Of a DNA stretch of 39,270 nt, positions 3,940 through 19,145 are shown piece after piece (within the stretch, counting starts at the first letter, position 1; every line of letters begins with the position of its first letter). Position numbers and translations under genes: made by a program. Below the pieces are notes generated by a model. That model did not search any database, was not told where the DNA came from, and saw only the letters and a program-made list of their open reading frames with translations. The DNA is taken from positions 1-39,270 of the forward strand of contig CBRAFJ010000001.1 in assembly GCA_967755195.1 (NCBI GenBank), read 5' to 3'. This stretch comes from an uncultured bacterium. Lineage in GTDB: Bacteria > Patescibacteriota > Saccharimonadia > Saccharimonadales > Saccharimonadaceae.

Positions 3940-3961
3940 GCGTACTTTGTAGCTGGATTTT

Positions 3962-4366: not shown

Positions 4367-4421
4367 GAAAAAAGTTCTCCTTAGTTTTTGTCGTATAAAT
4401 ACAGTTTTAGTTATAGCAGAC

Positions 4422-4817: not shown

Positions 4818-4836
4818 TTCTTTCTCCTTTACCTTT

Positions 4837-5202
4837 CTAAATACGGCCAATAACCCAGTTAACGATCGCAAATGCCATCATAGCAACAACCAGGCCAACT
4901 ATAGAGTATATTACCGTGTCGCGGCCGCTATTCACCATCTTTGGATCACCGTTACTGGTAGTAAATCGGATAGCACCTACTATGATCATGATAACTGCAA
5001 CGATACCTATAACAGTCAGCAGCAAGTTAATGACGTTTCTCATCAGCGTCCAGACGCTGTCATCACGACCCTGGCAAACGGCAGTGTTGGCGCTAGCACC
5101 ACTACACGACTGCCAGATGTCGATAGCACTAGCTGGTTCAGCGACAAAAGCGGCAGTCGCTAGACTAACCACAGCTAAAAGTGATATTAGAAACTTTTTC
5201 AT
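4837..5202 (-). CDS. VirB2/TrbC-like T4SS pilin paralog P3
   Basis: 121 aa. Signal peptide ending PASA, Cys pair (SC..VC), core LLLTVIGIVAVIMIIVGAIRFTTSNGDPKMVNSGRDTVIYSIVG. SD AAGGAGGA. Confidence 0.8.
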   Translation of the reverse strand: MKKFLISLLAVVSLATAAFVAEPASAIDIWQSCSGASANTAVCQGRDDSVWTLMRNVINLLLTVIGIVAVIMIIVGAIRFTTSNGDPKMVNSGRDTVIYSIVGLVVAMMAFAIVNWVIGRI

Positions 5203-5211
5203 TGATCCTCC

Positions 5212-5877: not shown

Positions 5878-6269
5878 TATAGTAATCCTCCCGGTACGAG
5901 CGCGTTCACGAGCGCCCAACCAAATATAAACAGCAACAGACCTATAACGGCATTTACTATGATAGTTATAGCTTGTTTAGTCTTAGCGGCGTCACCGTTA
6001 CTAGATATGTACATCAGTGCACCCCAGACGATACCACCAACAACTGCTATACCGACACCGATAGCCAAGAAATTAGTGATCTGCAGGACTATCGACATCG
6101 CAGGGTTACCACCTGTGGTGTTACACCTTATTATGTTAGTTTCTATGTCACTACATGACTTGTTAAAGTTCGTAGCCGAAGCAGTACTAAAAGGCAGCAG
6201 GGCAGCAGCTACGGCAACAACCAGTAGTAACGGAACAAGTTTGTAATGTATTTTTGTTATAGTCTTCAT
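5877..6269 (-). CDS. VirB2/TrbC-like T4SS pilin paralog P1 (first gene of the pilin operon)
   Basis: ORF 5877-6317. ATG 6269 (MKTITKIHYK..) gives a normal signal peptide ending SASA. Cys pair (SC..RC), core FLAIGVGIAVVGGIVWGALMYISSNGDAAKTKQAITIIVNAVIG. Confidence 0.72.
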   Translation of the reverse strand: MKTITKIHYKLVPLLLVVAVAAALLPFSTASATNFNKSCSDIETNIIRCNTTGGNPAMSIVLQITNFLAIGVGIAVVGGIVWGALMYISSNGDAAKTKQAITIIVNAVIGLLLFIFGWALVNALVPGGLL

Positions 6270-6288
6270 TTCATATACCTTATCTAAA

Positions 6289-6317
6289 AATATCCCATAT
6301 ATCCGCACTACTTGCAA
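6289..6317 (-). promoter_or_regulatory. Candidate promoter of the pilin operon (TTGCAA-17 nt-GATATT)
   Basis: Minus strand has TTGCAA at 6317-6312 and GATATT at 6294-6289. A ~12-nt leader containing AAGG follows. Confidence 0.35.
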
Positions 6318-6387: not shown

Positions 6388-8985
6388 ATGCGAAAAATAT
6401 CAAAACTTCTCTTTGTTATAACGGCGCTAGCTTTTACGCTGTCGTTTGGCGTAATTTCTAACAGTCCCGTAGCCTACGCTACCAGTGGGGGTGGAGGAAA
6501 CGAAGAACGCTGTAGCGACTTCTCTGAGGCTAGTGACCGTGAGATGTGTAATGACCAGTACAACGAGTGTCAGGCCGCAACCGGCGGCAACAACTGTATG
6601 GAAAGGGCCGTTACATATACCCAGGAAAACGGCACACAGGCACCAGAAGGTGAGGCTGATGTCTGTACGGCAGGTGCCCTAGGTTGGCTCGTTTGTCCAG
6701 CTATAGATTTCTTGGCAACCATGAACGACGCAGCATACGCGGCTGTCGAGTCAATGCTGTATGTAAACCCTGTAGCACTAGAGAACGGCGGACCACTGTT
6801 TGAGACATGGCAGAGGTTCCGCGACATAGCAAACGCTTTGTTCGTAGTAGCGATACTTGTGATCGTATTTTCTCAGGCAACATCACTAGGTCTGTCTAGT
6901 TATGGCGTAAAAAAGCTACTGCCGAGGGTTATAGCGGCAGCTATTTTAGTAAACATATCATTTTTCCTATGCCAGATAGCTATAGATATATCTAACATTA
7001 TCGGCGTTAGCATACATAGTTTGTTCGAGAGCTTCTATAGTGATAATGACGTCGATATAGACGGTATCAGCTGGGCATCACTGATAACAGGAGTATTGGC
7101 AGGTGGCGCTCTGTGGGGCGCTGGAGCAGTTGCGCTTGGTTCTGGTGGAATAATGGCGGCAATGGCGAGCATTCTCCCTTTCCTGGTGACGGCGCTGTTT
7201 GCCGTCATAACAGCACTTGTCGTACTAATAGCCCGTCAAGTAATCATCATCCTTCTAGTTGCTCTCTCACCATTAGCGTTTGTAGCCCTTATATTGCCTA
7301 ACACTCAGAAATACTTCCAGATGTGGCAAAACACCATAACCACCATGCTGGTTATGTTCCCGCTGGTTGCTGCTTTGTTCGCAGGCAGCAAACTGGCTGC
7401 AAACATAGTCCTAACATCACCAACATCCGACGGAGATGGGGGTATTAACTTATTCTCTGCCATCGCAGCAATCTGTATGATGTTCATTCCACTGTTTGCT
7501 GTGCCTTTTATAGTCAAATTCAGTGGCGGTACATTGGGACGCTTGGCCGGTATGATAAACAATCCTAGCAAAGGACCTTTCGATGCACTGCGTAGGCGGG
7601 CAGAAGAAAGCCGAGACCTGGCGCAGAACAGGGCACGCACAAGGGCTCTTAGTAGTGAAAAAGGTAATAATAACAATCCGTTTACGTTTGCAGGCCGGGT
7701 TAAACGCAACAACGCACGTAACTATAAGAACAAGCTAGCAAAGGGAATTTACGAAGAGGCAGAGCAAGAAGATATCGCACGACGAGCGTTTAGCAACGAA
7801 AATCCTGATTCTGCCAAGAAATTCGCAACCAAAATGGCTGGCTCCGATAACCCAGCATATATAACCGCGGTGCAGGCCAGCGCTAAGTCTACTGTGGATA
7901 AGCTCGAGCGTGAAAGTGCGCAGCGACGTGAAATCCTCATAAAGGCGCAGCACGACCCGCGAGAACTGCTACAGAAATCTCAGACTGGATATGTCGAGGC
8001 TGTGAAAAATAATGACTTAGCCGGCGCGCGCGCATACCAGAACATCATGCTTAATGGTGGCTCAGCAGGTATAAGTAAACTTGAAGGAGCCATAGAAGCA
8101 GCCGAGAAACATACAGACGGAGACCTGTTCCAGAAGCACTCAGAACTGAGCTCGCAACTGCGAAGTGACTTAAACTCTGCAGGACTGAAATCTAAAAACA
8201 ACGTACTTGCAACCTGGGCGTTTACTCCGAATGCCACTGTCGAGGGTCAGAGAAGAAGCGCTGGTACTTACAATACACTTACTGACGCTGAATTCGTAGG
8301 TCAGTCACCCGCCAACATAAAGGCTGCTTTAGCCGCAAATTCTATAACTTCCGAGCGAGCACAAGATATGCTTGACAACCCTAATCTTAGACTTAGCTTT
8401 AGCCCTGACAAGCGCGAAATTGTCAAAAACGCAATGAGCGGCCTACCCTCAGGGGCCTCAACTCAAAGTCAAGCAGGCCCCGGCGGCCCGCCTACAGCTG
8501 GCCCACCACCTAGCCCTGGTCCAAGCGGCCCTCCTCCTAGTGGAGGCAGTCCAGCCACTCCTCGTGGTCCTTCAGGACCACCTCCGGCCGCACCTCTGGG
8601 ATATGCTCCAGCTCCCCAGGCGACAGCAGCACCAACGCCCCCACCAGCGCAAGTAGTCCAAGCTCCGGCGCCGGCGACACCTGCTAGCAACCTACCACCA
8701 GCTCAACCAGCCCAGCAGGCCACTATAGCTCCTGATGCTCCGCGATACACAGCACCTTACAGCCAAAGTGACATACAAGCGATGGGTTCTGGTGGTATCC
8801 GTACCATCATCAGGGAAGTCCCTCAGGGCGCCCAAGGTCTGTCTAACGCCGATATAGCAAAGATTATCAACGCCACGCAAGACCAGTCAGCCATGCAAGA
8901 TATCAACCAAGAACTGCGGATGGAAAGAAACCGCCGACGAGGTGGTTTCGACCCAACTAGCGGTCCACAGAACCCTCTACCTTAG
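6388..8985 (+). CDS. VirB6/TrbL-like polytopic membrane protein with Cys-rich N-terminal exodomain and ~450-aa hydrophilic, proline-rich C-terminal extension
   Basis: 865 aa. Signal peptide, then a Cys-rich segment (6 Cys), then at least 6 long hydrophobic helices including ARQVIIILLVALSPLAFVALILPNTQKYFQMWQ (TrbL/VirB6-like). The helical/charged C-terminal part ends in a PGGPPTAGPPPSPGPSGPPPSGG.. tract (~8470-8730). Confidence 0.75.
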   Translation: MRKISKLLFVITALAFTLSFGVISNSPVAYATSGGGGNEERCSDFSEASDREMCNDQYNECQAATGGNNCMERAVTYTQENGTQAPEGEADVCTAGALGWLVCPAIDFLATMNDAAYAAVESMLYVNPVALENGGPLFETWQRFRDIANALFVVAILVIVFSQATSLGLSSYGVKKLLPRVIAAAILVNISFFLCQIAIDISNIIGVSIHSLFESFYSDNDVDIDGISWASLITGVLAGGALWGAGAVALGSGGIMAAMASILPFLVTALFAVITALVVLIARQVIIILLVALSPLAFVALILPNTQKYFQMWQNTITTMLVMFPLVAALFAGSKLAANIVLTSPTSDGDGGINLFSAIAAICMMFIPLFAVPFIVKFSGGTLGRLAGMINNPSKGPFDALRRRAEESRDLAQNRARTRALSSEKGNNNNPFTFAGRVKRNNARNYKNKLAKGIYEEAEQEDIARRAFSNENPDSAKKFATKMAGSDNPAYITAVQASAKSTVDKLERESAQRREILIKAQHDPRELLQKSQTGYVEAVKNNDLAGARAYQNIMLNGGSAGISKLEGAIEAAEKHTDGDLFQKHSELSSQLRSDLNSAGLKSKNNVLATWAFTPNATVEGQRRSAGTYNTLTDAEFVGQSPANIKAALAANSITSERAQDMLDNPNLRLSFSPDKREIVKNAMSGLPSGASTQSQAGPGGPPTAGPPPSPGPSGPPPSGGSPATPRGPSGPPPAAPLGYAPAPQATAAPTPPPAQVVQAPAPATPASNLPPAQPAQQATIAPDAPRYTAPYSQSDIQAMGSGGIRTIIREVPQGAQGLSNADIAKIINATQDQSAMQDINQELRMERNRRRGGFDPTSGPQNPLP

Positions 8986-8992: not shown

Positions 8993-9925
8993 ATGGCAGT
9001 ATACAAAGTACCCCAAGACGTTGAAGCCGAAGACAAACTGATAGGTCCATTCAGTTTCCGGCAGTTCATATATCTGATAGTTGCAGCTCTCGGCATATTG
9101 CTAGCATGGGCGCTGAGCCGTCTATTTATCGGTCTCGCAATCGTTCCGCTGCCGATAATTGTGGCGTTCTTAGCCTTGGCTCTCCCGCTGCGCAAAGACC
9201 AGCCGATGGAGACCTACCTGGTGGCTCTACTGAAGTTCTATTTCAAACCTCGTAGTCGTCTATGGGATCCAGAAGGGCAGATATCCCTTGTAAACATCAC
9301 GGCAGCAAAGGCTACTGAAGGACCGCAACTGAAAGCGCTTCGTGGAGCAGCAGCATCACAACAGCTAGCCTATCTAGCCCAAGTCGTAGACACCCAGGGC
9401 TGGGCTTCTCGTGGTGCAACCCAGAACCAGAACCTATCTGACCTGATAGTTGCTGAAGCTGACCAGGCCGAAGACGTCCTAGACGCAAGCAGTGGTGTTG
9501 CTCAGGCTCTTGACCAACGTATAGCTCAGTCGGACGATGCACGACGTCAAGCGCTTCGTGAGCAAATGCAGGCAACCAACACGCCGTCACAGCCAAGTCC
9601 AGCGCAAACTATATTTGCCACCCCAGAACCGACCCCACAAGCGTCACTACCTACCGATAATGTCGCCTTTAGCCCATACCCAAGCAACATGCACCAAAGG
9701 GTGTTGTCACCTGATGGAAAATTGACTCAGGGACAGACATCGAACAAAAATGACCAGCCAGTCATAACTGAGGAAAACAAACCAGCAGAAACTCCTGGTG
9801 CTATGGCGGTCTCCCCTGATATAATGAGACTTGCAAACAATAACGACCTTTCTATTAGCGCTATCGCACGCGAAGCGCAACGGCTCAGCGAAGACGACCA
9901 AGAAGTCGTCATAACACTTCGCTAG
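8993..9925 (+). CDS. PrgI/VirB3-like small-TM protein with long Gln/Pro/Ala-rich C-terminal tail
   Basis: 310 aa. N-terminus YKVPQDVEAEDKLIGPFSFRQFIYLIVAALGILLAW plus a second TM helix resembles the PrgI (VirB3 analogue) family signature. It sits between VirB6-like and VirB4, as in monoderm T4SS loci. Confidence 0.6.
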   Translation: MAVYKVPQDVEAEDKLIGPFSFRQFIYLIVAALGILLAWALSRLFIGLAIVPLPIIVAFLALALPLRKDQPMETYLVALLKFYFKPRSRLWDPEGQISLVNITAAKATEGPQLKALRGAAASQQLAYLAQVVDTQGWASRGATQNQNLSDLIVAEADQAEDVLDASSGVAQALDQRIAQSDDARRQALREQMQATNTPSQPSPAQTIFATPEPTPQASLPTDNVAFSPYPSNMHQRVLSPDGKLTQGQTSNKNDQPVITEENKPAETPGAMAVSPDIMRLANNNDLSISAIAREAQRLSEDDQEVVITLR

Positions 9926-9969: not shown

Positions 9970-10800
9970 ATGGATCCGAATAATCAGCAACCAGCTGGAC
10001 AACCGGCCGCAATGCCGCAAGTACCGCCAACTCCTGGTGTTGCTTCTGGCCCGCAAACACCTCAGAGCGCCAAACCGCGCAACCCTAATAGCACTCAGAA
10101 CACTCTGTTAATCGCCGAGTTACGCGAAGGCATGGCCATCATGAACGATGGTAGTTTTCGTGCTGTCGTCGCCTGTCAGTCGATAAACTTTGACCTAATG
10201 AGTGCTCGCGAACGAGAAGGTGTCGAATACAGCTATCAGAACTTCCTGAACTCGCTATATTTCCCGATACAGATCTTCGTCCGCTCTCAACGCGTTGACA
10301 TAGGTCCATATCTGGAGCGTCTGGCAAAGATCCGCCGTGACCAGGACAATATGCTGCTAGGTGTACTGATGGACGACTACATGAACTTTATCGACGCTCT
10401 TTCACAGGAAACTAACATTATGGACAAAGATTTTTATGTCGTCGTGCCTTACTACCCAATAGGCGATCTGAACGCTTTTACTAGTGGCAGTAAAAGTATT
10501 TTCTCGGCAATCATGAAGCCAGACCAGCAAAAAACCGTCACTGTCGACCAAGTCGCCTACACTAAGGCAAAAGAAGAGATATCTAACCGCGTCAACGCCG
10601 TCATGAGCGGTCTTTTCCAGATGGGTATAAAGTGTCAGCAGCTGAGCACAAAACAGCTCGGTGAACTGTACTACAACATGTACAACCCGGACACAGCCGT
10701 TCGTGAACCGATGGGAGATTTCGAAAACCTGACTAGCACCTATGTCAGCAAGGGAACCGGCCAAGCACCTCAACCACATCTAGACAGGACTCAGCAATAA
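9970..10800 (+). CDS. Hypothetical protein, translationally coupled to virB4; Pro/Gln-rich N-terminus plus a globular domain reminiscent of VirB4 N-terminal domains
   Basis: 276 aa. TAA overlaps the virB4 ATG (TAATG at 10798-10802). Segment IAELREGMAIMNDGSFRAVVACQSINFDLMSAREREGVEYSYQNFLNSLYFPIQIFVRSQRVDIGPYL resembles the CagE/TrbE/VirB4 N-domain pattern. This is memory-based and unverified. Confidence 0.6.
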   Translation: MDPNNQQPAGQPAAMPQVPPTPGVASGPQTPQSAKPRNPNSTQNTLLIAELREGMAIMNDGSFRAVVACQSINFDLMSAREREGVEYSYQNFLNSLYFPIQIFVRSQRVDIGPYLERLAKIRRDQDNMLLGVLMDDYMNFIDALSQETNIMDKDFYVVVPYYPIGDLNAFTSGSKSIFSAIMKPDQQKTVTVDQVAYTKAKEEISNRVNAVMSGLFQMGIKCQQLSTKQLGELYYNMYNPDTAVREPMGDFENLTSTYVSKGTGQAPQPHLDRTQQ

Positions 10801-12707
10801 TGGCTTTTGGAAAGAAAAAACAGAGCGCTATAGACATAGCCGAAGCTCAGCGGTTACGCGAGCAACAAGAAGTCGAAACTGAATTCCTTAAAGGCATCAC
10901 GACCCTACGCGACCTGATTGCCCCTAGTAGCTTAGAGGTCCAGAGTGCTTATTTCCGTATCGGTACCAAATACGGCCGTACTCTGTACATCTACGGTTAC
11001 CCACGACAGATCTACACCGGTTGGCTCAGTAGCATCATCAACGTCGACGAAGTTATCGACGTCAGCATGTTCATCTACCCAGTTGAAAGCCAGGTAGTCC
11101 TAAACAACCTACGTAAAAAGGTTGGTCAGCTCGAGGCAAGCATCTCTATAAATGCCGAACACGGAAAAGTTCGTGACCCGGGTCTAGAGGCCGCTATACA
11201 AGACGCTGAAGAACTGCGTGACCAGCTACAAGTCGGCGCCGAGCGTTTCTTCCGTTATGGCCTATACATGACCATGTACGCTGACAGCCTAGACGAACTA
11301 GCCTTCGTCCAGCACAAGATAGAGACCATACTCGGTCAACAGATGGTTTTCAGTAAAGTTGCGTCAAGCCAGCAAGAGCAGGGGCTAAACAGTACCATCC
11401 CACAGATGGCAGACCAACTGCAGATTCGCCGCAACATGAACACCGGCGCTATTTCGACATCATTTCCATTCACCAGCGCCGATCTAACCCAGGAAAAGGG
11501 TGTGCTCTACGGTATAAACATGCACAACAACGGTCTAGTTATATTTGACCGTTTCTCACTCGAGAACGCCAACATGGTCGTCTTCGCCAAGTCTGGTGCC
11601 GGTAAGTCGTTCACCGTCAAACTAGAAGCCCTACGTAGTATGATGATGGGTTCTGACGTTATCATCATCGACCCAGAAAATGAGTACCAGCGACTAACCG
11701 AGGCTGTCGGAGGCAGTTATATACAACTCAGCCTGAACTCGGCAGTGCGCATCAACCCGTTTGACCTACCACGCGTTATCGACAGCGACGACGCCGAAGA
11801 CGCGCTGCGTGCTAACCTAGTCACCCTACACGGCCTACTACGCCTAATGCTGGGTGGCGGGCAAGTGGTCAACGGCATGGCAATCGCCGCACTCACACCG
11901 GCCGAAGAAGCTGACCTCGATCAGGCTCTTATCGACACCTACGCTCGCGCCGGTATCACTAGCGACCCTCTAACTCATAATTCATTGCCACCAACTATTG
12001 GGGATCTATACGAAACCCTATTACACATGGGTGGTAGCGGTCCGCAGCTAGCCCAACGTCTGCGCAAATACACCACTGGTACATTTGCCGGTATTTTCAG
12101 CCAGCAGAGCAACATAGACATCAACAACCCGATGGTCGTGTTTAACATTCGCGACCTAGAAGACGAACTGCGACCAGTCGCTATGTATATCGTCCTAAGT
12201 CATATCTGGAACAAAACCCGCACCGACCAGAAAAAACGTATGCTGATCGTTGACGAGGCTTGGCAGCTGATGAAATATGATGACTCGGCAAACTTCCTGT
12301 TTAGTCTTGCCAAGCGGGCCAGGAAATACTATCTTGGACTTACCACCATCACACAGGACGTTGAGGACTTTATGAGCAGCAAGATGGGTCGCGCCATCGT
12401 TGCCAACAGCTCTATGCAGCTACTGCTAAAACAAAGCTCTAGCGCCGTCGACGTTCTGGGAGAAGTCTTTAAACTAACAGAGGAAGAGCGTAAACGTCTA
12501 GCGAACTTCCCGGTCGGCCAAGGGTTATTCTTTGCCGGACAAAACCACGTCCACATACAGGTTATCGCAAGTCCAACTGAACAAAACCTGATAACAACAA
12601 ACCCTCAACAGGTAAAAGCCATGCAACAACAACAGCAACAGCCAACAAATCAGCCGCTCTATGAACAATCGCAATCAGGATACGCAGACCCGAACCAACA
12701 ATTTTAG
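10800..12707 (+). CDS. virB4: VirB4-family T4SS ATPase
   Basis: 635 aa. Gram-positive-type N-domain (LIAPSSLEVQSAYFRIGTKYGRTLYIYGYPRQIYTGWL). Walker A FAKSGAGKSFT (~11586-11612). Walker B MLIVDEAWQL (~12240-12265). Poly-Gln C-terminal tail. Confidence 0.9.
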   Translation: MAFGKKKQSAIDIAEAQRLREQQEVETEFLKGITTLRDLIAPSSLEVQSAYFRIGTKYGRTLYIYGYPRQIYTGWLSSIINVDEVIDVSMFIYPVESQVVLNNLRKKVGQLEASISINAEHGKVRDPGLEAAIQDAEELRDQLQVGAERFFRYGLYMTMYADSLDELAFVQHKIETILGQQMVFSKVASSQQEQGLNSTIPQMADQLQIRRNMNTGAISTSFPFTSADLTQEKGVLYGINMHNNGLVIFDRFSLENANMVVFAKSGAGKSFTVKLEALRSMMMGSDVIIIDPENEYQRLTEAVGGSYIQLSLNSAVRINPFDLPRVIDSDDAEDALRANLVTLHGLLRLMLGGGQVVNGMAIAALTPAEEADLDQALIDTYARAGITSDPLTHNSLPPTIGDLYETLLHMGGSGPQLAQRLRKYTTGTFAGIFSQQSNIDINNPMVVFNIRDLEDELRPVAMYIVLSHIWNKTRTDQKKRMLIVDEAWQLMKYDDSANFLFSLAKRARKYYLGLTTITQDVEDFMSSKMGRAIVANSSMQLLLKQSSSAVDVLGEVFKLTEEERKRLANFPVGQGLFFAGQNHVHIQVIASPTEQNLITTNPQQVKAMQQQQQQPTNQPLYEQSQSGYADPNQQF

Positions 12708-12717
12708 GTAGGAACCC

Positions 12718-15700
12718 ATGGCAGCCACAAATTCACCCAACCGCTACACAGACGATGATCTAAACGTCGCAGACAAAGAGTTTAATGACATCGTTAACCG
12801 CCCAGACATGCAAGCACTGGACGAGCAGGGTGACGCGGCTATACGTGATCACGACGCAAAGGCCGGTGACAGCAAGCCAGACGGCAAAAATGTCGGAGAC
12901 CTAGGCCGTGCCGAAAGTAAAGCCGCCAGTGGACCTAGAAACAACTTTTACAACCCAACCAGGAGCGGTGGAGCAACGAAGGGTTCAAGTGGTTTTGTTG
13001 GATCTTTGAAGGGCGCTTTCACCGGCAAGAACAAAAAACGTAACATCGCTCTAGGTGGTGGTATCGGTGGTGGAGCTATAGGTATAACTTTGTTGATATT
13101 TTCGCTGCTTCCGTTCAAACTACCGGGCCTTATGGAGATAATAGCTAACGAAGCTGGTCAGCGTGTCGAACAAATAACTGAACGTCGTGCCAAACAGATA
13201 ATCGCCCGGGCAATCCTAACCAGAATGGGCATAAAAGCTGGCGGTGGCTACATAGTTACGGGTAACGGACCACTCCATGACCTGTACGCATCTATGCGCA
13301 CTGCTGGGTTCGAGAAAAAGCTAGCTGCAAAAGGCATAACCATCCAAGACCGTGGCGCAAATGGTGTTCGAGTACTACTAAACGGTGAAGTACTCGGTCG
13401 AGGCGATCTGCGTACCGACCGTGAAATCATAGAAGCCCTAGACGGCAACCGCGTCACAAATCAGGTATTAAAACAGCTCGTCAAAGAAGAAGTTCCGTCT
13501 TGGCGCTGGATGAAGCGTGCTAAATTTGCCAAATGGCTACGTCTGAAATACGGCATCCCCAGATATGGCATAGAAAACAGCCAGAACGATGATGACGATG
13601 AAAAAGTCGCCGAGATGCAAAAAGGTCGTCTGAAGACATCGTATGAACGTATCACCAAAAACGTCATGGAAGTATTTGGCTGTGTCATGGGCGGTGACAG
13701 TTGCCCGGCAAACCAGAGTGCCGATCGGCCAGATGACGGACGATCGTCTGACAACGCTATCGACGAAAGCGACCTAACTGAAACCGCTGACGAACTATTA
13801 GAAGAAGAGACGTCTAACAGGAAGTTCTTTGCCAAGGTCCACGCCAAGCTGCTAGACACTGTTCTAGGAAAACTAGCCTCAAAAGCCATACCTATCATCG
13901 GTTGGATAGACCTAGCCGCCACCGTTGACCACATTATTTATGAGTTTGGCGACAACGACTACTTGGCAACTTTGCCAGCCTACTACCGCGGGCTAGGGTA
14001 CGCTCAGATATATGGTGAACGGGCGGGCTATGCAGACCAGCAAAAACTCGGCGCTCTAGATCCGGCATTCATCGCAGTTCTCGCCACTCAGGCAGACGGA
14101 GCCGAGGAATCACAGGCCTTTAACTACATAAACGGCGACTCTACCAGAGGAAAGCCTATAGACATGAAGGTCAACAACTGTGACGACTGCAAAAGCTCTA
14201 TAAATAGGTATTGGCAGTGGTACAAAGATAACATCGGCGACACCTTAGCTGGTAGCACTGGTACTATTAAATGTCCGGATGACGGTATTGGTGCGGGTGC
14301 ATGTATAACCAGTCATGAAATCATGAATGCCTACTACGAAACAATCGGTGGTGGTGGGCTCCTCGGCTGGCTAAGTGGTGTAGTCGGCGATGCTGGTAGT
14401 TGGGCGTTTCAAAGAATCATGGATCTATTACCAGGCCTACCATTCGAAGATTGGTTGGCGAACAAAATGAAACAGGCTATGAAGTTCGTTCTGGAAACAT
14501 TTGGTCTATACATCGACCCACTGGACACTGGAGCAGCCTTGTTCAACAACATGCACGCTGGCGCCACTGTAACCTTCAACTCCTTCTGTGAAGAGTCTGG
14601 TTGTCGCAAACTAACTCCAGAACAAACCGGTATGGTTAACTCGCAAATCGCCGCCGAGCGCGACGAATACCTACGCAGCCAGAGCCTAGGCTACCGACTG
14701 TTTAGCCCAGAGAATACTCGTTCTATAACTACACAGCTAGCTGTGTCACTACCGACTGCGCCACAGAACGACATAACAGGTAGTGTTAGCGCATTCGCTA
14801 GCCTAGTCGCAAACGCTCCGGCCAAACTGCTATCTACAGTCCTGCCGACAGCCTCGGCCAATACCAAATACGTTGACTTGTATGGCGTTGACCCATTTGG
14901 CGCGCTGCCAGCTGACCTAAACCAAAACATCTCTAACGAACTACTGCGCGGCGAGGAATGTCCAGATGTTGCCGAAAACCAATACAACGGCTGCAAAATA
15001 GATAAAACCGTCGCCGAAGCCATGATCTGTGAATTCACTCCAGAGATCCCAGACTGTTCAGACGAGGACGCACCAGTAGAGGGAAGTGCAGGCTTTGTTG
15101 TCGGTAGCTACAACGTACTAGACTCCGACGCGCACGAAGAGGACAGCAGGCGTATCGGTGGCTGTAGCCAGGCCGAACTAGCTAACGACCGCAACTGTAC
15201 TAGAACCAGGTCGGCCCGTCAGGCACAAATAATCAACGGAAACTCTTCAGCCGGCAACCCAGCCTTTGACGTTGTCGGAACTCAGGAAATGAGCGAGACT
15301 CAGTACAACCAGCTAAAGTCGATGCTCTCTGGATATGACGCATTTCCAACTGATGGTTCAGGTCTAGGCAACAGCCGCGATGGTAAACTTGGTATCTTCT
15401 GGAAACGATCCAAATTTACCCTAGTCGAAAGTGGCAAGGCCCCGGGGTTGAGTAACATTGCAGACAGAATCAACAACCCTTGGGTTGGTCTACGCGCTAC
15501 AAACGGTCAGATGGTCTACTTTATGTCCATCCACTACGCTCACCGAGACTGTAGTGACGGCCGCTGTGACGGCAACAAAGCACCAAACAATGTTTTCGAG
15601 GCAAATATGCGTGAGTCATCACGTCTAACTATGGACTGGGTCAGGTCAAAAGCGACGGGCAACAATATCGCTATAGTTGTCGGTGACTATAACGACCAGC

Positions 15701-16470
15701 TCAGGTGGGGATTGTCATACTGTGTCTACACGCAGGGCGGCCTAATGCAGCACGCTCACGACATGGCTCAGGGTGACAGCCCATCGGCAGGATGCTCTAG
15801 GCCTGACACTGGTGGTATCGACCACATATATGTCACTCCAAAAGAAAATGTCACCGCCACTGGATGGACCCATATGAGCAAGAGTGGCATAGTCGCCAGG
15901 GCATCAGACCACTCCCCAGTATACGCCACCGTCAACCTAGGCGGTGATGAAGAGGCAGCCGGCGGAAGTTTCCAGTGGCCTATAAAGCGAGCTGATTTCA
16001 CACACCTGTCAGGATGTTACCCACGGCAAAACGGCTCTAGCGGCAACGGTCACGCCGGTATAGACATCGATGTACCTAACACTGGCTACCATCAGCGATC
16101 AACACCGGTTTATTCAGCCACTACGGGCACAGTTACGGCCGTTGACGACGACATCGGCGGTGGTATCAGTGGTGTACAGATAAGTGCCCCTGGTGGTATG
16201 TATGTCGTTTACGAACACATGACCGGTTACAGAAGCTTCGTAAGGGTTGGTGAGCGTGTAAACGCCGGCGACCAGATAGGTTTCGCCTCGGACGTTGGCG
16301 CTACCGGTGCACACCACTTGCACTTTGGTGTAACGACACAGCGTGGCTGGTTCGGTGTAAAGTCCAACCCGACCGACCGTACAAAAAACCCTCTAGACTT
16401 CCTGCCAGCTGACCGACCACTAGCTAACGCTCTCGGCGGTACCTGTACTGCGTCAGGAGGAGCAAACTAA
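12718..16470 (+). CDS. Membrane-anchored multidomain protein: one N-terminal TM, ~650-aa Cys-rich unknown region, EEP (endonuclease/exonuclease/phosphatase) domain, C-terminal M23/LytM peptidase
   Basis: 1250 aa. TM helix IALGGGIGGGAIGITLLIFSLLPF. EEP motifs occur in order: SYNV (15106-15117), GTQE (15277-15288), GDYN (15682-15693), IDHIY (15817-15831), SDHSPV (15904-15921). M23 motifs: HAGID (16051-16065) and HHLHF (16312-16326). Confidence 0.85.
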   Translation: MAATNSPNRYTDDDLNVADKEFNDIVNRPDMQALDEQGDAAIRDHDAKAGDSKPDGKNVGDLGRAESKAASGPRNNFYNPTRSGGATKGSSGFVGSLKGAFTGKNKKRNIALGGGIGGGAIGITLLIFSLLPFKLPGLMEIIANEAGQRVEQITERRAKQIIARAILTRMGIKAGGGYIVTGNGPLHDLYASMRTAGFEKKLAAKGITIQDRGANGVRVLLNGEVLGRGDLRTDREIIEALDGNRVTNQVLKQLVKEEVPSWRWMKRAKFAKWLRLKYGIPRYGIENSQNDDDDEKVAEMQKGRLKTSYERITKNVMEVFGCVMGGDSCPANQSADRPDDGRSSDNAIDESDLTETADELLEEETSNRKFFAKVHAKLLDTVLGKLASKAIPIIGWIDLAATVDHIIYEFGDNDYLATLPAYYRGLGYAQIYGERAGYADQQKLGALDPAFIAVLATQADGAEESQAFNYINGDSTRGKPIDMKVNNCDDCKSSINRYWQWYKDNIGDTLAGSTGTIKCPDDGIGAGACITSHEIMNAYYETIGGGGLLGWLSGVVGDAGSWAFQRIMDLLPGLPFEDWLANKMKQAMKFVLETFGLYIDPLDTGAALFNNMHAGATVTFNSFCEESGCRKLTPEQTGMVNSQIAAERDEYLRSQSLGYRLFSPENTRSITTQLAVSLPTAPQNDITGSVSAFASLVANAPAKLLSTVLPTASANTKYVDLYGVDPFGALPADLNQNISNELLRGEECPDVAENQYNGCKIDKTVAEAMICEFTPEIPDCSDEDAPVEGSAGFVVGSYNVLDSDAHEEDSRRIGGCSQAELANDRNCTRTRSARQAQIINGNSSAGNPAFDVVGTQEMSETQYNQLKSMLSGYDAFPTDGSGLGNSRDGKLGIFWKRSKFTLVESGKAPGLSNIADRINNPWVGLRATNGQMVYFMSIHYAHRDCSDGRCDGNKAPNNVFEANMRESSRLTMDWVRSKATGNNIAIVVGDYNDQLRWGLSYCVYTQGGLMQHAHDMAQGDSPSAGCSRPDTGGIDHIYVTPKENVTATGWTHMSKSGIVARASDHSPVYATVNLGGDEEAAGGSFQWPIKRADFTHLSGCYPRQNGSSGNGHAGIDIDVPNTGYHQRSTPVYSATTGTVTAVDDDIGGGISGVQISAPGGMYVVYEHMTGYRSFVRVGERVNAGDQIGFASDVGATGAHHLHFGVTTQRGWFGVKSNPTDRTKNPLDFLPADRPLANALGGTCTASGGAN

Positions 16471-17672
16471 TGAATAAGTTTCGTAGTGCAATACTTGCGG
16501 TTCTAGCAGCACTTATTTCTATAGGTACGCCGATGACTGCATACGCCGATAGTTTCCAGGTACCACCAGAGATAACAAACCGCGAAAAAGCCCACTTGAA
16601 CATCGCCTTTACCGGTGGTGGCAACGACGGTAAATGTGATGAAAGTGGTACGACCTTAAGTGGCGCCAACAATAAGGAAAAAGTCTGGAATTTTTTCGTA
16701 AACAAAGGTCTCTCAGCCGAGCAAACAGCCGGCATCATGGGCAACATGGCCGTGGAGAGTGGTTTTGACCCGACTGTAGTTCAAGGTGGATCTCACTCGA
16801 CGAACCCTGCTAGTATCTCAGCCGGATGGGGAATCATCCAGTGGACACCTGGGTCCAAAATCATCGGCCTGCTAGAACGGGCGGATATATCGGGCAATCC
16901 CTCAGAACTCGCGACACAGCTAGAACTAGTTTTGTGGCACATGAACTATACTAGTCCAACTGGTGTTACTAACATGTATGCACAGTACCAGAACGTTACT
17001 GATGTTGCCGAGGCAACCAGGATGTTCGAAGACCTAATGGAAGGCGCTGGCATACCACATATCGAGCGTCGAATAGAGGAGGCGAGAACTATCCTAGCCG
17101 AGCTAGGTGGCGGTGGCGACGCCGCAGGTGCTGACACAGATCTAGGTGGATGTACTGACGAAGGTGGTATAGCTTCAGCAAATGGTTTTACATTCCCACT
17201 GCGAACCACTAAAGCAGTCATACTGGCAGGTAGTAGTCTAGGTGGAGCGAACCTAAAATGGTGCCACACCAGCCAGACAAACTGTCACCACGATTACAAA
17301 GCGGCCGACATAATGGTTGTAACAGGAACTACAGTCGTAGCAGCAAAAGCTGGTACGGTACAAAAATCAAGCCGATCTGGATCGCCAGGAAATGTCACCA
17401 TCAACAGTAGTGACGGTAAGGGTATAAACTTTTATCAGCACTTAGATGCCGGGTCCGTAACAGTTAGTGCTGGTCAAAAAGTTTCTGCCGGCCAGGTACT
17501 CGGAAAAGTTGGTGACTCTACGGATGCCTTCGGCACAGCGCCGCACCTACACTTCGACATGCTGCCGTCACAATACAAATACCGCGTATCCTGTGCCGGT
17601 GCTTCCTGTTCGGGCTACCCATTCATCGAAGTTCAGCCAGCCCTAACCGAAACATTTAAACTATTGAATTAG
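16470..17672 (+). CDS. Secreted cell-wall hydrolase: lysozyme-like (phage-tail-lysozyme type) domain plus M23 peptidase
   Basis: 400 aa. ATG overlaps the upstream TAA (TAATG). Signal peptide ending AYA. Motif KGLSAEQTAGIMGNMAVESGFDP...GWGIIQWTPGSK. C-terminal M23-like segment GTTVVAAKAGTV..YQHLD..VSAGQVLGKVGDS..APHLHFDM. Confidence 0.8.
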   Translation: MNKFRSAILAVLAALISIGTPMTAYADSFQVPPEITNREKAHLNIAFTGGGNDGKCDESGTTLSGANNKEKVWNFFVNKGLSAEQTAGIMGNMAVESGFDPTVVQGGSHSTNPASISAGWGIIQWTPGSKIIGLLERADISGNPSELATQLELVLWHMNYTSPTGVTNMYAQYQNVTDVAEATRMFEDLMEGAGIPHIERRIEEARTILAELGGGGDAAGADTDLGGCTDEGGIASANGFTFPLRTTKAVILAGSSLGGANLKWCHTSQTNCHHDYKAADIMVVTGTTVVAAKAGTVQKSSRSGSPGNVTINSSDGKGINFYQHLDAGSVTVSAGQKVSAGQVLGKVGDSTDAFGTAPHLHFDMLPSQYKYRVSCAGASCSGYPFIEVQPALTETFKLLN

Positions 17673-17681: not shown

Positions 17682-19145
17682 ATGACTAATACAACCAAAA
17701 TTCGCCTCATAGTCATCGCTGTCGTCATCGCCATTTTGGTGCCTGTGCTGTATTATTTCGCCACACATGGTCGGCTAAATATCACCAACCCAGGCGACAA
17801 ACAGGTTTCGCTCGTTAGCATAGAGGGAAATGAAACCAGCCAAGAGCAGGCTGTATCAAACGGATCTCTGGTAACATCCGGAACCTACATAGTCCGTAAC
17901 GACCAAAATGGCACGCTACGACTGGCAAATATTTCTGTCCCTGGCTGGCTCAGATCAGCTAGTGTTACTTTCATGGACACCAAAACTGCTCAGATGGACC
18001 GAGTTGCATCTCTAACATATGACAACTTCATCCCGGCCGACAACGGATCACTGGTTAGCTTCACGAGTCTAGGCAACCGCGCACCTGGTTTTAAAGCCCA
18101 CGTCACCGACGATGCTTTTGGTGGCAAGTCAGCAGACAGCCGTTTTGCATCTGACATCCTCTCACCAACACCAACCAGTGACGGCAAACTACTAGGCATC
18201 TATCAAGCAGATATCAGCACTTATTCGTTCGTAACCGGTCAATTCCAAAAAATTGCTACAGCGCCTATAGCCGACACCGAAGGTACCGACGAAGACCTAG
18301 CACTTCAACGGTCTTCAGGCACCACTAGCAGTCGAGTAGGGTACTCTCAGGCCGAAACGGGTAAGCTAACCGTCATAAACACCGCAAACAACTCTACTGA
18401 GACCGTAAATCTTCCTGACGGACACACCAAGGTCTTTGACGTAAACGACAATGGCTGGGCAAACGTGACGTCTAAAAATCCTGAGGGCGAAGCAAGCGAA
18501 GACACCTTTGCTAGCTATCAACTAGTTGTCGGCAAGTTTGGCTCAAATGACACAAAAACTCTAGATATAGGTGCCAATCGCAACGTAGACTCAGTTGCTT
18601 TATCGCCAGACTCTAAATACGCCGGAGTCGTCAAAAACGACCAGTTGTGGGTATACGACATCGAAAACAGCAGCGTCGTTATGGTAAATCCGTTCACGGC
18701 AGCGCAGCAGATGTTCTGGAATGGCGACAAACTATATAGCCTGACGGTTGACTCTGGTGTGACTGTTTTCGACAGCACTCAAAAACAGATATCTGCCATT
18801 ACTGTCAGTAACCCTGAAGGTCTATCATTTTCTAGCATGACACCAGTAGGATCAAAGCTATACGTCACTGCATTTAACACCAAACACGCCTCTCGCTTGG
18901 CTGACGGTTTCGTGATCGACTTGGAAAAGAACAGTGACGGAATAACCAACCAATTGGCAAAGTCTCTACCGATAGAAAAACAGGGTTACAAAGCCAACTA
19001 CCTGGGTAATAAAATATACGTTCGTGTCAACGACTACGGGCTGACCGCTGACGCCGTTGCTCGTATAAAGTTGAAGGCGACAGATGACCTGAAAAAAGCC
19101 CTAGGCGACACCTATGGCAAATGTGAAGTGGTCTTCGAAGACTAA
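17682..19145 (+). CDS. N-terminally anchored extracytoplasmic protein, possibly beta-propeller-like; last gene of the T4SS-like operon
   Basis: 487 aa. AGGAGG SD overlaps the upstream stop. Single TM helix (IRLIVIAVVIAILVPVLYYFA). Ser/Thr/Asn/Gly-rich beta-type sequence with a TolB/PD40-like element (LSPDSKYAGVVKNDQLWVYD). Confidence 0.6.
   Translation: MTNTTKIRLIVIAVVIAILVPVLYYFATHGRLNITNPGDKQVSLVSIEGNETSQEQAVSNGSLVTSGTYIVRNDQNGTLRLANISVPGWLRSASVTFMDTKTAQMDRVASLTYDNFIPADNGSLVSFTSLGNRAPGFKAHVTDDAFGGKSADSRFASDILSPTPTSDGKLLGIYQADISTYSFVTGQFQKIATAPIADTEGTDEDLALQRSSGTTSSRVGYSQAETGKLTVINTANNSTETVNLPDGHTKVFDVNDNGWANVTSKNPEGEASEDTFASYQLVVGKFGSNDTKTLDIGANRNVDSVALSPDSKYAGVVKNDQLWVYDIENSSVVMVNPFTAAQQMFWNGDKLYSLTVDSGVTVFDSTQKQISAITVSNPEGLSFSSMTPVGSKLYVTAFNTKHASRLADGFVIDLEKNSDGITNQLAKSLPIEKQGYKANYLGNKIYVRVNDYGLTADAVARIKLKATDDLKKALGDTYGKCEVVFED

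What the first reader, a model, noticed from the sequence alone, without database searches (positions are those of the whole stretch)
12718..16470. Giant membrane-anchored protein fusing an intact EEP nuclease/phosphatase-fold domain to an M23 peptidase inside the T4SS operon
Seen: a 1250-aa ORF lies 10 nt after virB4. It has a ~110-aa charged N-terminus, one TM helix, and ~650 aa of Cys-rich sequence with no motif I recognise. All EEP signature motifs then follow in order: SYNV 15106-15117, GTQE 15277-15288, GDYN 15682-15693, IDHIY 15817-15831, SDHSPV 15904-15921. An M23 domain follows (HAGID 16051-16065, HHLHF 16312-16326). Established: the EEP superfamily includes DNase I, CdtB, ExoIII/APE, sphingomyelinases and inositol-phosphatases, and several members are secreted toxins. 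M23/LytM enzymes cut peptidoglycan cross-bridges. Monoderm T4SS hydrolases such as PrgK, TraG-pIP501 and CwlT are built from SLT/CHAP/NlpC-P60/LytM modules, not EEP. Inference: this looks like a surface-displayed wall-breaching enzyme joined to a nuclease or lipid-phosphodiesterase. It would suit attacking a host cell envelope, or degrading host DNA or lipids for scavenging. It is the strongest effector-like candidate in the window.
Basis: partly seen in the sequence, partly recalled or inferred. Interest (0 to 1): 0.82.

Follow-up and report, generated by a model that had tools for sequence, protein, structure and literature searches.

The report
T4SS wall-breaching subunit with phosphoesterase module
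In a tiny parasitic bacterium (Saccharibacteria), a membrane-anchored part of its secretion machine carries an intact phosphate-ester-cleaving enzyme and a cell-wall peptidase at its outer end, one version of a swappable tool kit that probably cuts a path through bacterial cell envelopes.

Summary
In detail: a 1250-aa ORF (12718-16470) starts 10 nt after virB4. It has one TM helix, an intact EEP domain and an intact M23 domain at the stated coordinates.

The window is the chromosomal, oriC-adjacent T4SS of a Saccharibacterium. The gene order matches the T4SS cluster of Southlakia epibionticum, which is essential for epibiotic growth. The protein fills the slot after virB4, as does SEML1_0007, a 'hypothetical' gene that Tn-seq scores essential.

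It belongs to a large family (517 clusters at 50% identity). All members share a ~650-aa all-helical ectodomain with no known fold. The C-terminal enzymes vary: EEP, tandem EEP, GH43, GDSL, GDPD, glucosaminidase, and M23 or VanY/M15 peptidases.

By sequence profile and predicted structure, the EEP domain is closest to Bacteroides BT3783 (a mannose-6-phosphatase) and BVU_0621. It is not close to DNase I, CdtB or sphingomyelinase.

The best reading is an anchored T4SS subunit that carries envelope-degrading enzymes, not a free effector. The EEP most likely cuts phosphoester-linked wall glycopolymers; nuclease or phospholipase roles are not excluded. I found no published description of the core family or the EEP module. 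This is a new variant of a known kind, of moderate to high interest.

The parts
12708..12717 (+). 10-nt gap between virB4 and the ORF, with a Shine-Dalgarno-like AGGA at 12710-12713
   Evidence: coordinates
12718..16470 (+). Whole ORF: 1250 aa plus TAA stop
   Evidence: The identical protein is on 4 public contigs.
12718..13044 (+). aa 1-109: charged N-terminal tail, predicted cytoplasmic. Its first ~45 aa carry a motif conserved among close relatives (MxDLKDxYSDxxLNP...PDMxAxxDQGDA).
   Evidence: K/R cluster (KNKKRN) directly before the TM segment.
13045..13122 (+). aa 110-135: the single transmembrane helix, followed by the conserved juxtamembrane motif LLPxKxPG
   Evidence: Hydropathy maximum 1.94; L130, P132, K134 and P136 nearly invariant
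13123..15084 (+). aa 136-789: conserved all-alpha ectodomain core. This is the family-defining module, it has no known fold, and it contains the invariant C748/C759.
   Evidence: Model pLDDT 72, pTM 0.77, almost all helices. No PDB or BFVD structural match. 517 representative clusters.
15085..15951 (+). aa 790-1078: EEP (Exo_endo_phos) phosphoesterase domain. Catalytic residues N799, E857, H939, D990, N992, D1035, D1064, H1065.
15997..16389 (+). aa 1094-1224: M23 (LytM-type) zinc endopeptidase domain with H1112, D1116, H1167, H1200, H1202
16390..16467 (+). aa 1225-1250: C-terminal tail with conserved C1243
   Evidence: Cys in 26 of 35 sequences
10800..12707 (+). VirB4-like ATPase (CD1110 family) immediately upstream
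   Evidence: 86-94% identical in the other Saccharibacteria genome loci L001-L008; 85% in L009 and 70% in L010.
9970..10800 (+). TrsD/TraC-N-like protein
8993..9925 (+). PrgI (VirB3-like) protein
6388..8985 (+). VirB6/TrbL-like polytopic protein (weak Pfam match)
3442..6317 (-). Divergent array of five VirB2-like T4SS pilin genes (PF18895)
16470..17672 (+). Second hydrolase: Sec signal peptide, phage-tail-lysozyme domain and M23 domain. Its start overlaps the focal ORF's stop (TAATG), with AGGAGGA at 16455-16461.
17682..19145 (+). 487-aa N-terminally anchored protein of unknown function. It is the last gene of the cluster before recF.

Best explanation
The ORF encodes a bitopic, membrane-anchored subunit of the chromosomal Saccharibacteria T4SS. 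It is the gene that always follows virB4.

Shown by the analyses:
- A short cytoplasmic tail and one TM helix hold a ~650-aa all-helical ectodomain of unknown fold. This ectodomain is the conserved, family-defining part.
- The C-terminal end carries a lineage-variable cassette of envelope-degrading enzymes.
- In this organism the cassette is one catalytically intact EEP phosphoesterase plus one canonical M23 peptidoglycan endopeptidase.

Inferred:
- The protein works with the translationally coupled, Sec-secreted lysozyme-M23 protein encoded next to it.
- Together they locally dismantle wall polymers so that the T4SS pilus or channel can cross the parasite's own wall and, probably, the host's wall.
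- The M23 cuts peptide cross-links.
- The EEP most likely hydrolyses phosphoester or phosphodiester bonds of wall-linked glycopolymers. Candidates are teichoic-acid-like polymers, phosphoglycans and linkage units.
- The helical core acts as a wall-spanning scaffold.
- The cytoplasmic tail docks to the VirB4/TrsD ATPase complex.
For: Locus identity:
- The locus holds a pilin array, VirB6-like, PrgI, TrsD-like, VirB4, this ORF, lysozyme-M23, recF, dnaN and dnaA.
- The same gene order occurs in the eight other public loci examined: L001-L007 and L010. The short L009 contig shows the virB4 / core protein / lysozyme-like segment.
- The order also matches S. epibionticum ML1. There SEML1_0007 is 1113 aa, lies directly after virB4, and has a DD-peptidase fold only at aa 951-1105. 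Its transposon insertions are depleted, and PMC12102498 reports it as essential for epibiotic growth.

Family structure:
- The N-core alone retrieves 517 clusters.
- Tails in the same slot carry EEP, tandem EEP, EEP+GH43, M23 only, VanY/M15, GDSL, GDPD, glucosaminidase plus a C39-like peptidase, and beta-lactamase-like domains.
- The GDSL variant and the GDPD variant both sit directly after VirB4.
- Apart from EEP itself, every identified module type is a family that acts on cell-envelope polymers (assignment from general knowledge of these families). No dedicated nuclease domain was identified in the tails that gave a Pfam match.

Enzyme integrity:
- E857, H939, D990, N992, D1064 and H1065 are invariant in 26 sequences and conserved in 59 EEP copies.
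- The M23 residues align with LytM H210, D214, H260, H291 and H293.

EEP subclass:
- The family profile matches 3g6s at 9e-28 and 3mpr/4c1r at ~1e-19. The next group (ANGEL2, TDP2, CNOT6) scores ~1e-7.
- The alignment to 3g6s is end to end, with all motifs in register.
- The same three structures top the Foldseek search.
- BT3783 was assayed as a metal-dependent phosphatase on phosphorylated mannose glycans.

Topology: K/R cluster before the TM helix, all Cys after it, and conserved Cys pairs.

Operon: a 10-nt gap with an SD sequence and a TAATG overlap.

Host-facing evolution: the core is 28-45% identical and the EEP 25-43% identical in genomes whose VirB4 is 86-94% identical.
Against: - No activity or localisation has been measured for any family member.
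- The EEP substrate cannot be read from sequence. TDP2, CCR4-type nucleases and nocturnin follow closely in the Foldseek ranking (1e-12 against 5e-14).
- Surface-anchored EEP nucleases exist in other monoderms (own knowledge: SpnA, MnuA).
- Sequence homology to SEML1_0007 itself was not tested, because that sequence was not at hand. The link rests on synteny, length and architecture.
- Whether the target is the parasite's own wall or the host's is unresolved.
- The core model has moderate confidence only (pLDDT 72). Its scaffold role and the docking role of the tail are inference.
Confidence: 0.6

Rival explanations
1. The EEP domain is a surface-displayed nuclease. It degrades host or environmental DNA/RNA at the contact site and so feeds nucleotide scavenging by an organism that cannot make nucleotides. 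The M23 only provides access.
For: - EEP is the fold of DNase I, ExoIII, TDP2 and CCR4. These nucleic-acid enzymes are the second tier of both profile and Foldseek hits.
- Second-copy-type EEP domains from relatives, not the query's own copy, give faint NCBIfam hits to xth, ExeM/NucH and MnuA.
- Saccharibacteria lack de novo nucleotide synthesis (PMC10633639).
Against: - The top relatives are the BVU_0621/BT3783 group, ahead of the next group by 8 to 20 orders of magnitude in profile E-value.
- The NCBIfam nuclease hits score 12-19 bits against cut-offs of 99-300, and the query's own copy gives none.
- No DNase I or CdtB appears among the listed PDB profile hits (best 60 of 67).
- No dedicated nuclease domain was identified in the equivalent slot of relatives, whereas GDPD, GH43, GDSL and peptidoglycan hydrolases were.
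- Deleting comEC did not affect viability of S. epibionticum, so ComEC-dependent DNA uptake is not essential there (PMC12857230).
Confidence: 0.17
2. The EEP domain is a phospholipase C or sphingomyelinase-like enzyme, or an inositol-phosphatase-like enzyme. It attacks host membrane lipids or lipoglycan anchors (for example phosphatidylinositol mannosides) once the M23 and the lysozyme have opened the wall.
For: - The EEP superfamily includes sphingomyelinases and inositol phosphatases (established knowledge).
- Relatives carry GDSL lipase/acylhydrolase and GDPD modules in the same slot. Both can act on lipids.
- Saccharibacteria cannot synthesise fatty acids.
Against: - No sphingomyelinase or 5-phosphatase structure appears among the 60 listed profile hits or the top 50 Foldseek hits.
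- No curated NCBIfam lipid-phosphodiesterase family matches.
- Whether a ~1100-residue ectodomain could reach a host membrane through the host wall is unknown.
Confidence: 0.12
3. The protein is a T4SS-delivered or T4SS-released toxin/effector, rather than a machine component.
For: - It is encoded in the T4SS operon and carries two hydrolytic domains.
- It evolves fast compared with VirB4, as many effectors do.
Against: - It has an N-terminal TM anchor with a conserved cytoplasmic tail.
- The conserved 650-aa core is present in all 517 family clusters, whatever the enzyme cargo.
- It holds a fixed position after virB4 in every locus examined.
- No small immunity-type ORF lies next to it. The following gene is another hydrolase, overlapping by 1 nt.
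- The Saccharibacteria T4SS lacks a recognisable coupling protein near the locus (PMC10633639; PMC12102498).
Confidence: 0.06

Closest known systems
SEML1_0007 of Ca. Southlakia epibionticum ML1 (Wang et al. 2023, PMC10633639). It is an unnamed 'hypothetical protein' in the T4SS cluster (SEML1_0006-0019) that is essential for epibiotic growth.
   Same: - The same slot directly after virB4, in the same oriC-adjacent gene order.
- A similar size (1113 against 1250 aa).
- An N-terminal ~950 aa with no recognisable domain, followed by a C-terminal zinc peptidoglycan peptidase.
- Followed by a lysozyme-type hydrolase gene.
   Different: - SEML1_0007 carries only a Hedgehog/DD-peptidase (VanY/M15-like) domain. 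It has no EEP and no M23.
- Direct sequence homology between the two proteins was not tested here.
- VanY-type family members that I could test share only ~28-33% identity in the core.
Monoderm conjugative T4SS peptidoglycan hydrolases (VirB1 functional analogues): PrgK of pCF10, TraG of pIP501, CwlT of ICEBs1, TcpG of pCW3
   Same: - Encoded inside an MPF-FATA-type T4SS operon.
- N-terminal membrane anchor with the catalytic domains outside.
- Multi-domain, and includes a LytM/M23-type module (PrgK has one; own knowledge and the citations).
   Different: - Those proteins are built from SLT/lysozyme plus CHAP/NlpC-P60 (plus LytM) modules, directly after the anchor.
- They have no ~650-aa helical core and no phosphoesterase.
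- Neither this protein's core nor its EEP-M23 part matches any of 72,556 plasmids.
BT3783 (PDB 4C1R/3MPR) and BVU_0621 (PDB 3G6S): secreted or periplasmic EEP proteins of Bacteroides
   Same: - Best sequence-profile and structural relatives of the EEP domain.
- End-to-end alignment with all catalytic motifs in register.
- BT3783 is a divalent-cation-dependent phosphatase acting on phosphorylated mannose glycans of a cell-wall polysaccharide.
   Different: - They are stand-alone ~270-300-aa enzymes of polysaccharide-utilisation loci in a diderm.
- Identity to the query is only ~17-18% over the structural alignment.
- Substrate-binding residues were not compared, so substrate identity is not established.
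Phage tail-associated lysins, and tape-measure or ejection proteins with a C-terminal M23
   Same: - A long alpha-helical region followed by an M23 domain used to breach peptidoglycan from outside. PDB sequence hits include 9k2v_E 'internal protein' and 9m7n_A Gp16.
- The neighbouring gene has a phage-tail-lysozyme domain.
   Different: The helical core has no significant structural similarity to tape-measure proteins (best BFVD E 0.017, TM 0.09). This is an analogy of design only.

Membership tests
EEP superfamily (Pfam PF03372 Exo_endo_phos) | Sequence match above the curated threshold | tested here: met
   32.8 bits against a cut-off of 24.5, aa 836-1065. The family profile matches 3g6s at E 9e-28.
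EEP superfamily (Pfam PF03372 Exo_endo_phos) | Complete catalytic and metal-binding set, in order (N, E, H, D-x-N, D, D-H) | tested here: met
   N799, E857, H939, D990/N992, D1035, D1064/H1065 are present. They are invariant or nearly so in relatives and in register with 3g6s, 3mpr and 4c1r.
EEP superfamily (Pfam PF03372 Exo_endo_phos) | EEP fold | tested here: met
   AlphaFold model with pLDDT 80. Foldseek probability 1.00 to many EEP structures, TM 0.6-0.8 normalised to the target.
BT3783/BVU_0621-like glycan-phosphate phosphatases | Closest sequence and structure relatives, aligned over the full domain | tested here: met
BT3783/BVU_0621-like glycan-phosphate phosphatases | Phosphatase activity on phosphorylated sugars or glycans | not testable with these tools
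   Requires an enzyme assay. Only BT3783 itself has been assayed.
DNase I / CdtB / ExoIII-type EEP nucleases | Sequence membership in a curated nuclease subfamily | tested here: not met
   For second-copy-type EEP domains of relatives, NCBIfam xth, ExeM/NucH and MnuA score 12-19 bits against cut-offs of 99-300. The query's own copy gives no hit. No DNase I or CdtB appears among the 60 listed PDB profile hits or the top 50 Foldseek hits.
DNase I / CdtB / ExoIII-type EEP nucleases | Nuclease activity | not testable with these tools
   Requires an assay. Domain pI (median 5.7) is not informative.
Bacterial sphingomyelinase / PLC-type EEP | Sequence or structural proximity to SMase-type EEPs | tested here: not met
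   Absent from the listed profile and Foldseek hits
Peptidase M23 (LytM/lysostaphin type) | Pfam match above threshold, with the zinc and catalytic residues H-x3-D, H and H-x-H | tested here: met
   48.4 bits against a cut-off of 28.7. H1112, D1116, H1167, H1200 and H1202 align to the LytM active site.
Monoderm T4SS cell-wall hydrolase (VirB1 analogue: PrgK/TraG/CwlT/TcpG) | Encoded within the T4SS operon, with an N-terminal anchor and an extracytoplasmic peptidoglycan-hydrolase domain | tested here: met
Monoderm T4SS cell-wall hydrolase (VirB1 analogue: PrgK/TraG/CwlT/TcpG) | Glycosidase (SLT/lysozyme) and/or CHAP/NlpC-P60 module in the same polypeptide | tested here: not met
   Only EEP and M23 were detected. 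The lysozyme module is on the next gene, 16470-17672.
Monoderm T4SS cell-wall hydrolase (VirB1 analogue: PrgK/TraG/CwlT/TcpG) | Required for T4SS function | not testable with these tools
   The gene in the same slot is essential in S. epibionticum by Tn-seq. This has not been shown for this protein.
Saccharibacteria 'post-virB4' core family (SEML1_0007-like; unnamed) | Conserved ~650-aa helical core after a single TM helix, with the gene immediately downstream of virB4 | tested here: met
   The core retrieves 517 clusters. The position is conserved in L001-L010.
Saccharibacteria 'post-virB4' core family (SEML1_0007-like; unnamed) | Sequence homology to SEML1_0007 itself | not tested
The link is inferred from synteny, length and domain layout.
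Translocated T4SS effector/toxin | Soluble substrate with an adjacent immunity gene and dependence on a coupling protein | tested here: not met
   The protein has a TM anchor. There is no immunity-type ORF, and the adjacent gene is another hydrolase. The literature reports no recognisable coupling or relaxase proteins in the S. epibionticum T4SS and only rarely a T4CP gene near virB4 in Patescibacteria.

The most novel reading that the evidence does not exclude
The C-terminal cassette is an exchangeable 'drill head', and its composition is matched to the envelope chemistry of the host. EEP or GDPD would serve phosphodiester-linked wall glycopolymers, GH43 would serve wall glycans, GDSL would serve acylated polymers, and M23 or M15 would serve the host's cross-bridge type. 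The cassette would be held at the tip of a novel wall-spanning helical T4SS subunit. On this reading the protein is a host-range determinant. It would be the enzyme that opens the host wall for the ~9-nm T4SS-type conduit seen by cryo-ET between Saccharibacteria and their hosts. The EEP would be the first phosphoesterase known to act as part of a type IV secretion machine.
Probability: 0.3. Interest if true: 0.8.

Novelty: new variant of a known kind. Interest (0 to 1): 0.62.

Why it matters
The Saccharibacteria T4SS is described as the first T4SS essential for the survival of the bacterium that carries it (PMC12857230). What it does, and how it crosses two cell walls, is unknown.

This analysis turns a 'hypothetical' gene that is scored essential in the model strain into a defined family. 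The family has a conserved scaffold of unknown fold and a rapidly evolving, modular set of envelope-degrading enzymes.

The EEP and GDPD phosphoesterase modules point to non-peptidoglycan wall polymers as targets. That gives concrete, testable hypotheses for host-wall breaching, host range and nutrient access in Patescibacteria.

It also adds a domain type not previously reported in T4SS-associated hydrolases. The active enzymes could be candidates against actinobacterial envelopes.

Tried and rejected
1. Searching the 5.8-billion-protein index with the EEP domain alone returned nothing, not even the parent protein. This looks like a word-index limitation. The origin of the EEP module outside the family therefore remains unknown.

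2. Foldseek on the N-terminal core gave no significant match against PDB (best E ~2) or BFVD (best E 0.017, TM 0.09, tape-measure proteins). I rejected the idea that the core is a tape-measure-like or known T4SS fold.

3. I looked at within-cluster polymorphism in 15 near-identical 1497-aa relatives to locate diversifying sites. Only 7 sites vary, which is uninformative.

4. Charge and pI of 59 EEP copies (median pI 5.7) were tried as evidence against DNA binding. I rejected this as non-diagnostic, because DNase I is itself acidic.

5. I tried a two-type (A/B) classification of the EEP paralogues. It is clean only for the query's nearest relatives, and the domains are otherwise diffusely divergent at ~20-35% identity. 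I do not build on it beyond noting that the query's EEP matches the first copy of the tandem forms.

6. tblastn of the core and of EEP+M23 against 72,556 plasmids gave no match. The architecture is therefore not a common plasmid T4SS hydrolase.

7. The promoter and terminator scan showed no enrichment over shuffles inside the cluster. This fits one operon but is not proof.

8. NCBIfam, including its nuclease subfamilies, claims none of the EEP domains.

Full report
**1. The observation**

The ORF 12718-16470 (+) exists and encodes 1250 aa. virB4 (10800-12707) ends with TAG at 12705-12707. The 10-nt gap contains AGGA, and the ATG is at 12718.

The TAA stop (16468-16470) overlaps the ATG of the next gene (TAATG). 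That ATG is preceded by AGGAGGA. The genes therefore look translationally coupled within one operon. A consensus scan shows no excess of promoters or terminators inside the cluster.

Pfam finds Exo_endo_phos (aa 836-1065, 32.8 bits, cut-off 24.5) and Peptidase_M23 (aa 1111-1208, 48.4 bits, cut-off 28.7).

Hydropathy gives one strong TM segment at aa ~110-135, preceded by the basic cluster KNKKRN. All 20 cysteines lie after it. The ~650-aa stretch between the TM helix and the EEP domain has no Pfam or NCBIfam match. 'Cys-rich' is an overstatement, but several Cys pairs are conserved.

**2. Where the window comes from**

Related loci in the species-level genome collection are titled Candidatus Saccharibacteria.

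The window carries these genes:
- a divergent array of five VirB2-like pilin genes (3442-6317, minus strand);
- a VirB6/TrbL-like gene, PrgI (VirB3-like), a TrsD-like gene and VirB4;
- the focal ORF;
- a Sec-secreted phage-tail-lysozyme + M23 protein, and an anchored 487-aa protein;
- recF, dnaN and dnaA on the other strand, then yidC.

This is the chromosomal, oriC-adjacent Patescibacteria T4SS described by Quinonero-Coronel et al. 2025 (PMC12102498). It is also the gene order of the T4SS cluster of Southlakia epibionticum ML1 (SEML1_0006-0019), which is essential for epibiotic growth (Wang et al. 2023, PMC10633639).

In ML1 the gene directly after virB4 is SEML1_0007. It is a 1113-aa 'hypothetical protein' whose only recognised domain is a Hedgehog/DD-peptidase fold at aa 951-1105. 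Its transposon insertions fall from 29 to 1 in the successive sample columns of the Tn-seq table. [quoted passage not shown]

**3. The protein family**

The full protein retrieves ~38 clusters. The N-terminal core alone (aa 110-791), searched exhaustively, retrieves 517 representative clusters at E<=1e-3 and 215 at E<=1e-10. The core is therefore the family-defining element.

Its AlphaFold model is almost entirely alpha-helical (pLDDT 72, pTM 0.77). It has no significant Foldseek match in PDB (best E ~2) or in BFVD (best E 0.017, TM 0.09). No PDB sequence matches it. This agrees with Wang et al. listing no domain for the first ~950 aa of SEML1_0007.

Conserved features include a juxtamembrane LLPxKxPG motif, W262/W273/K277/Y278, and the invariant pair C748/C759.

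The C-terminal region is modular:
- The query has EEP + M23.
- Its closest relatives (43-47% identity, ~1450-1500 aa) have two complete tandem EEP domains + M23.
- P0006 has EEP + GH43 + M23.
- Other members have M23 only, or VanY only.
- More distant members carry GDSL esterase, GDPD phosphodiesterase, glucosaminidase + C39-like cysteine peptidase, beta-lactamase-like + GDSL, or M74.
- Most distant members end in a LAS-type zinc-peptidase signature, HxxGxAxD...HxH.

With family-specific HMMs, about 45 of 171 collected members have EEP, including members whose core is only ~25-28% identical to the query.

Synteny shows that these are positional orthologues. In L001-L007, and in L009 (GDPD form) and L010 (GDSL form), the family member follows VirB4 directly and is followed by a lysozyme-type or SLT/CHAP hydrolase. 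Where the contig extends far enough, recF, dnaN and dnaA come next.

**4. Evolutionary rate**

Across the same loci VirB4 is 86-94% identical to the window's, TrsD 66-83%, DnaA 67-87% and DnaN 62-88%. In contrast:
- the focal core is only 28-45% identical;
- its EEP domain is 25-43% identical;
- the neighbouring lysozyme-M23 is 36-48% identical;
- the 487-aa protein is 32% identical;
- the pilins are 33-53% identical in local alignments.

In L009 VirB4 is 85% identical but the core only 24%. The extracytoplasmic parts of the machine thus evolve far faster than the cytoplasmic motor. That is what one expects of host-facing components. This is an inference: saturation prevents a dN/dS test.

**5. 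The EEP domain**

In an alignment of 26 family sequences, E857, H939, D990, N992, D1064 and H1065 are invariant, and D1035/H1036 nearly so. Across 59 EEP copies, including both copies of the tandem forms, the N-E-H-D-N...D-H set is conserved. The exceptions are two first-copy domains with a gap at the N799 position. Substitutions occur only in the IDH motif, in 12 of 59 copies. These are active-looking enzymes under purifying selection.

Subclassification:
- A family profile matches PDB 3g6s (BVU_0621) at 9e-28, and 3mpr/4c1r (BT3783) at ~1e-19. The next EEP groups (ANGEL2, TDP2, CNOT6) score 1e-7 to 1e-5.
- No DNase I, CdtB, ExoIII or sphingomyelinase is among the listed hits.
- The alignment to 3g6s covers residues 3-262 of 267, with every catalytic motif in register.
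- Foldseek with the C-terminal model (pLDDT 80) ranks the same three structures first (~5e-14). TDP2, nocturnin, CNOT6L and ANGEL2 follow at ~1e-12 to 1e-10.
- BT3783 was assayed as a divalent-cation-dependent phosphatase on phosphorylated mannose sugars and phosphorylated high-mannose glycans from yeast wall mannan (PMC4978465).
- NCBIfam's curated nuclease families do not claim the domain.

The domain is therefore a bona fide EEP enzyme, nearest to a glycan-phosphate phosphatase group. Its substrate is not determined.

**6. The M23 domain**

H1112/D1116 (HAGID), H1167 and H1200/H1202 (HHLHF) align with the LytM zinc and catalytic residues. Many relatives have a variant first motif (SH...VD), but the query is canonical. 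A second M23 in the next gene is only distantly related, so it is not a recent duplicate.

**7. Topology**

The basic cluster before the TM helix, the acidic ectodomain (core pI 4.8), the restriction of all Cys to the post-TM part, and the conserved Cys pairs argue for an N-in/C-out orientation. Two weakly hydrophobic stretches (aa ~382-408 and ~690-708) contain conserved charged residues. They are unlikely to be TM helices. Even if both were, the C-terminus would remain outside.

**8. Mechanism**

Shown by the analyses: an anchored protein in the T4SS locus with a conserved scaffold, plus intact EEP and M23 domains predicted to lie outside the cell.

Inferred:
- It acts with the coupled secreted lysozyme-M23 to open wall polymers for the T4SS pilus or channel.
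- The M23 cuts peptide cross-links.
- The EEP removes or cleaves phosphoester-linked wall glycopolymers.

The argument for an envelope substrate has two legs. The first is the nearest characterised relative, BT3783. The second is the company the domain keeps: the same slot in orthologues holds GDPD, GH43, GDSL, glucosaminidase and peptidoglycan peptidases. From general knowledge of these families, all are envelope-polymer enzymes, and GDPD is the family of the teichoic-acid-degrading enzyme GlpQ. No dedicated nuclease domain was identified among the scanned tails that gave a Pfam match.

Whether the target is the parasite's own wall, the host's wall or both is open. The fast evolution and cassette swapping favour at least some host-directed action. 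Cryo-ET of another Saccharibacterium shows a ~9-nm by 60-70-nm tube with a tip density that bridges parasite and host, of unknown composition (PMC11880426). This is context, not evidence for this protein.

**9. Rivals**

The rivals are a nucleotide-scavenging nuclease, a phospholipase or sphingomyelinase-like lipid attack, and a translocated effector. They are weighed in the structured fields. The effector reading is the weakest, because of the anchor, the universal core, the fixed position and the lack of an immunity gene.

**10. Novelty**

The literature I could search covers the two Patescibacteria T4SS papers, the 2025 FEMS T4SS review, the TM7x genomics paper and keyword searches. It mentions only 'peptidase and lysozyme homologues' downstream of virB4. 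It does not describe the core family, its modularity or any EEP module.

No plasmid in PLSDB carries a relative.

I classify the finding as a new variant of a known kind: a T4SS-associated wall hydrolase with a new scaffold and a new enzyme class.

**11. Limits**

- No direct alignment to SEML1_0007 was possible.
- The core model is of moderate confidence.
- The taxonomic breadth of the 517 clusters beyond Saccharibacteria was not established.
- The EEP-only database search failed.
- The EEP substrate is an inference.

Noticed in passing
window 3442-6317 (minus strand): An array of five divergent VirB2-like T4SS pilin genes (PF18895) is transcribed away from the VirB6-like gene. It matches the essential pilin array reported for S. 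epibionticum.
   Followed up: partly
window 754-1563 (+): A TraX-family protein (PF05857, E 2e-36) lies ~2 kb from the pilin array. In F-like systems TraX acetylates pilin (own knowledge), so it could modify the VirB2-like pilins here.
   Followed up: no
window 1985-2650 (-) and 1615-1952 (+): A ComF-like protein (double zinc ribbon + phosphoribosyltransferase domain) and two tRNA-Ser genes (anticodons TGA and GCT) lie next to the T4SS locus.
   Followed up: no
window 6388-19145 compared with L001-L010: There is a strong rate contrast within one operon. VirB4 is 85-94% identical across the closer Saccharibacteria loci. The focal core, lysozyme-M23, 487-aa protein, VirB6-like protein and pilins are only 24-53% identical.
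   Followed up: partly
L006 (DATLJN010000001.1, titled Magnetospirillaceae bacterium): This contig has the complete Saccharibacteria T4SS/recF/dnaN/dnaA synteny, with VirB4 86% identical to the window's. It is almost certainly a mis-binned Saccharibacteria contig.
   Followed up: partly
window 17682-19145 (+): A 487-aa protein with an N-terminal membrane anchor and only a faint Kelch-like hit closes the T4SS cluster. Other loci have a PEGA or Big_5 protein in this position. Its function is unknown.
   Followed up: no
window ~28000-36000: G+C drops from ~0.50 to 0.37-0.43 across a block of glycosyltransferase and unknown genes. The block includes a 585-aa ORF (31692-33449, minus strand) with no Pfam match. 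It may be a horizontally acquired surface-polysaccharide cluster.
   Followed up: no
relatives P0005-P0030 (M23 region aligned to window aa 1085-1135): Many family members replace the canonical M23 H-x3-D motif with a conserved 'LGSH-Y..GGF...S-VDIS' arrangement, in which H and D are ~17-20 residues apart. This could be a variant metal site or a degenerate, regulatory M23.
   Followed up: partly
relatives P0002-P0030 (~1450-1500 aa): These relatives have two complete, catalytically intact EEP domains in tandem. The query's single EEP corresponds to the first copy (40-56% identity). In P0006 a GH43 domain sits where the second copy would be.
   Followed up: partly
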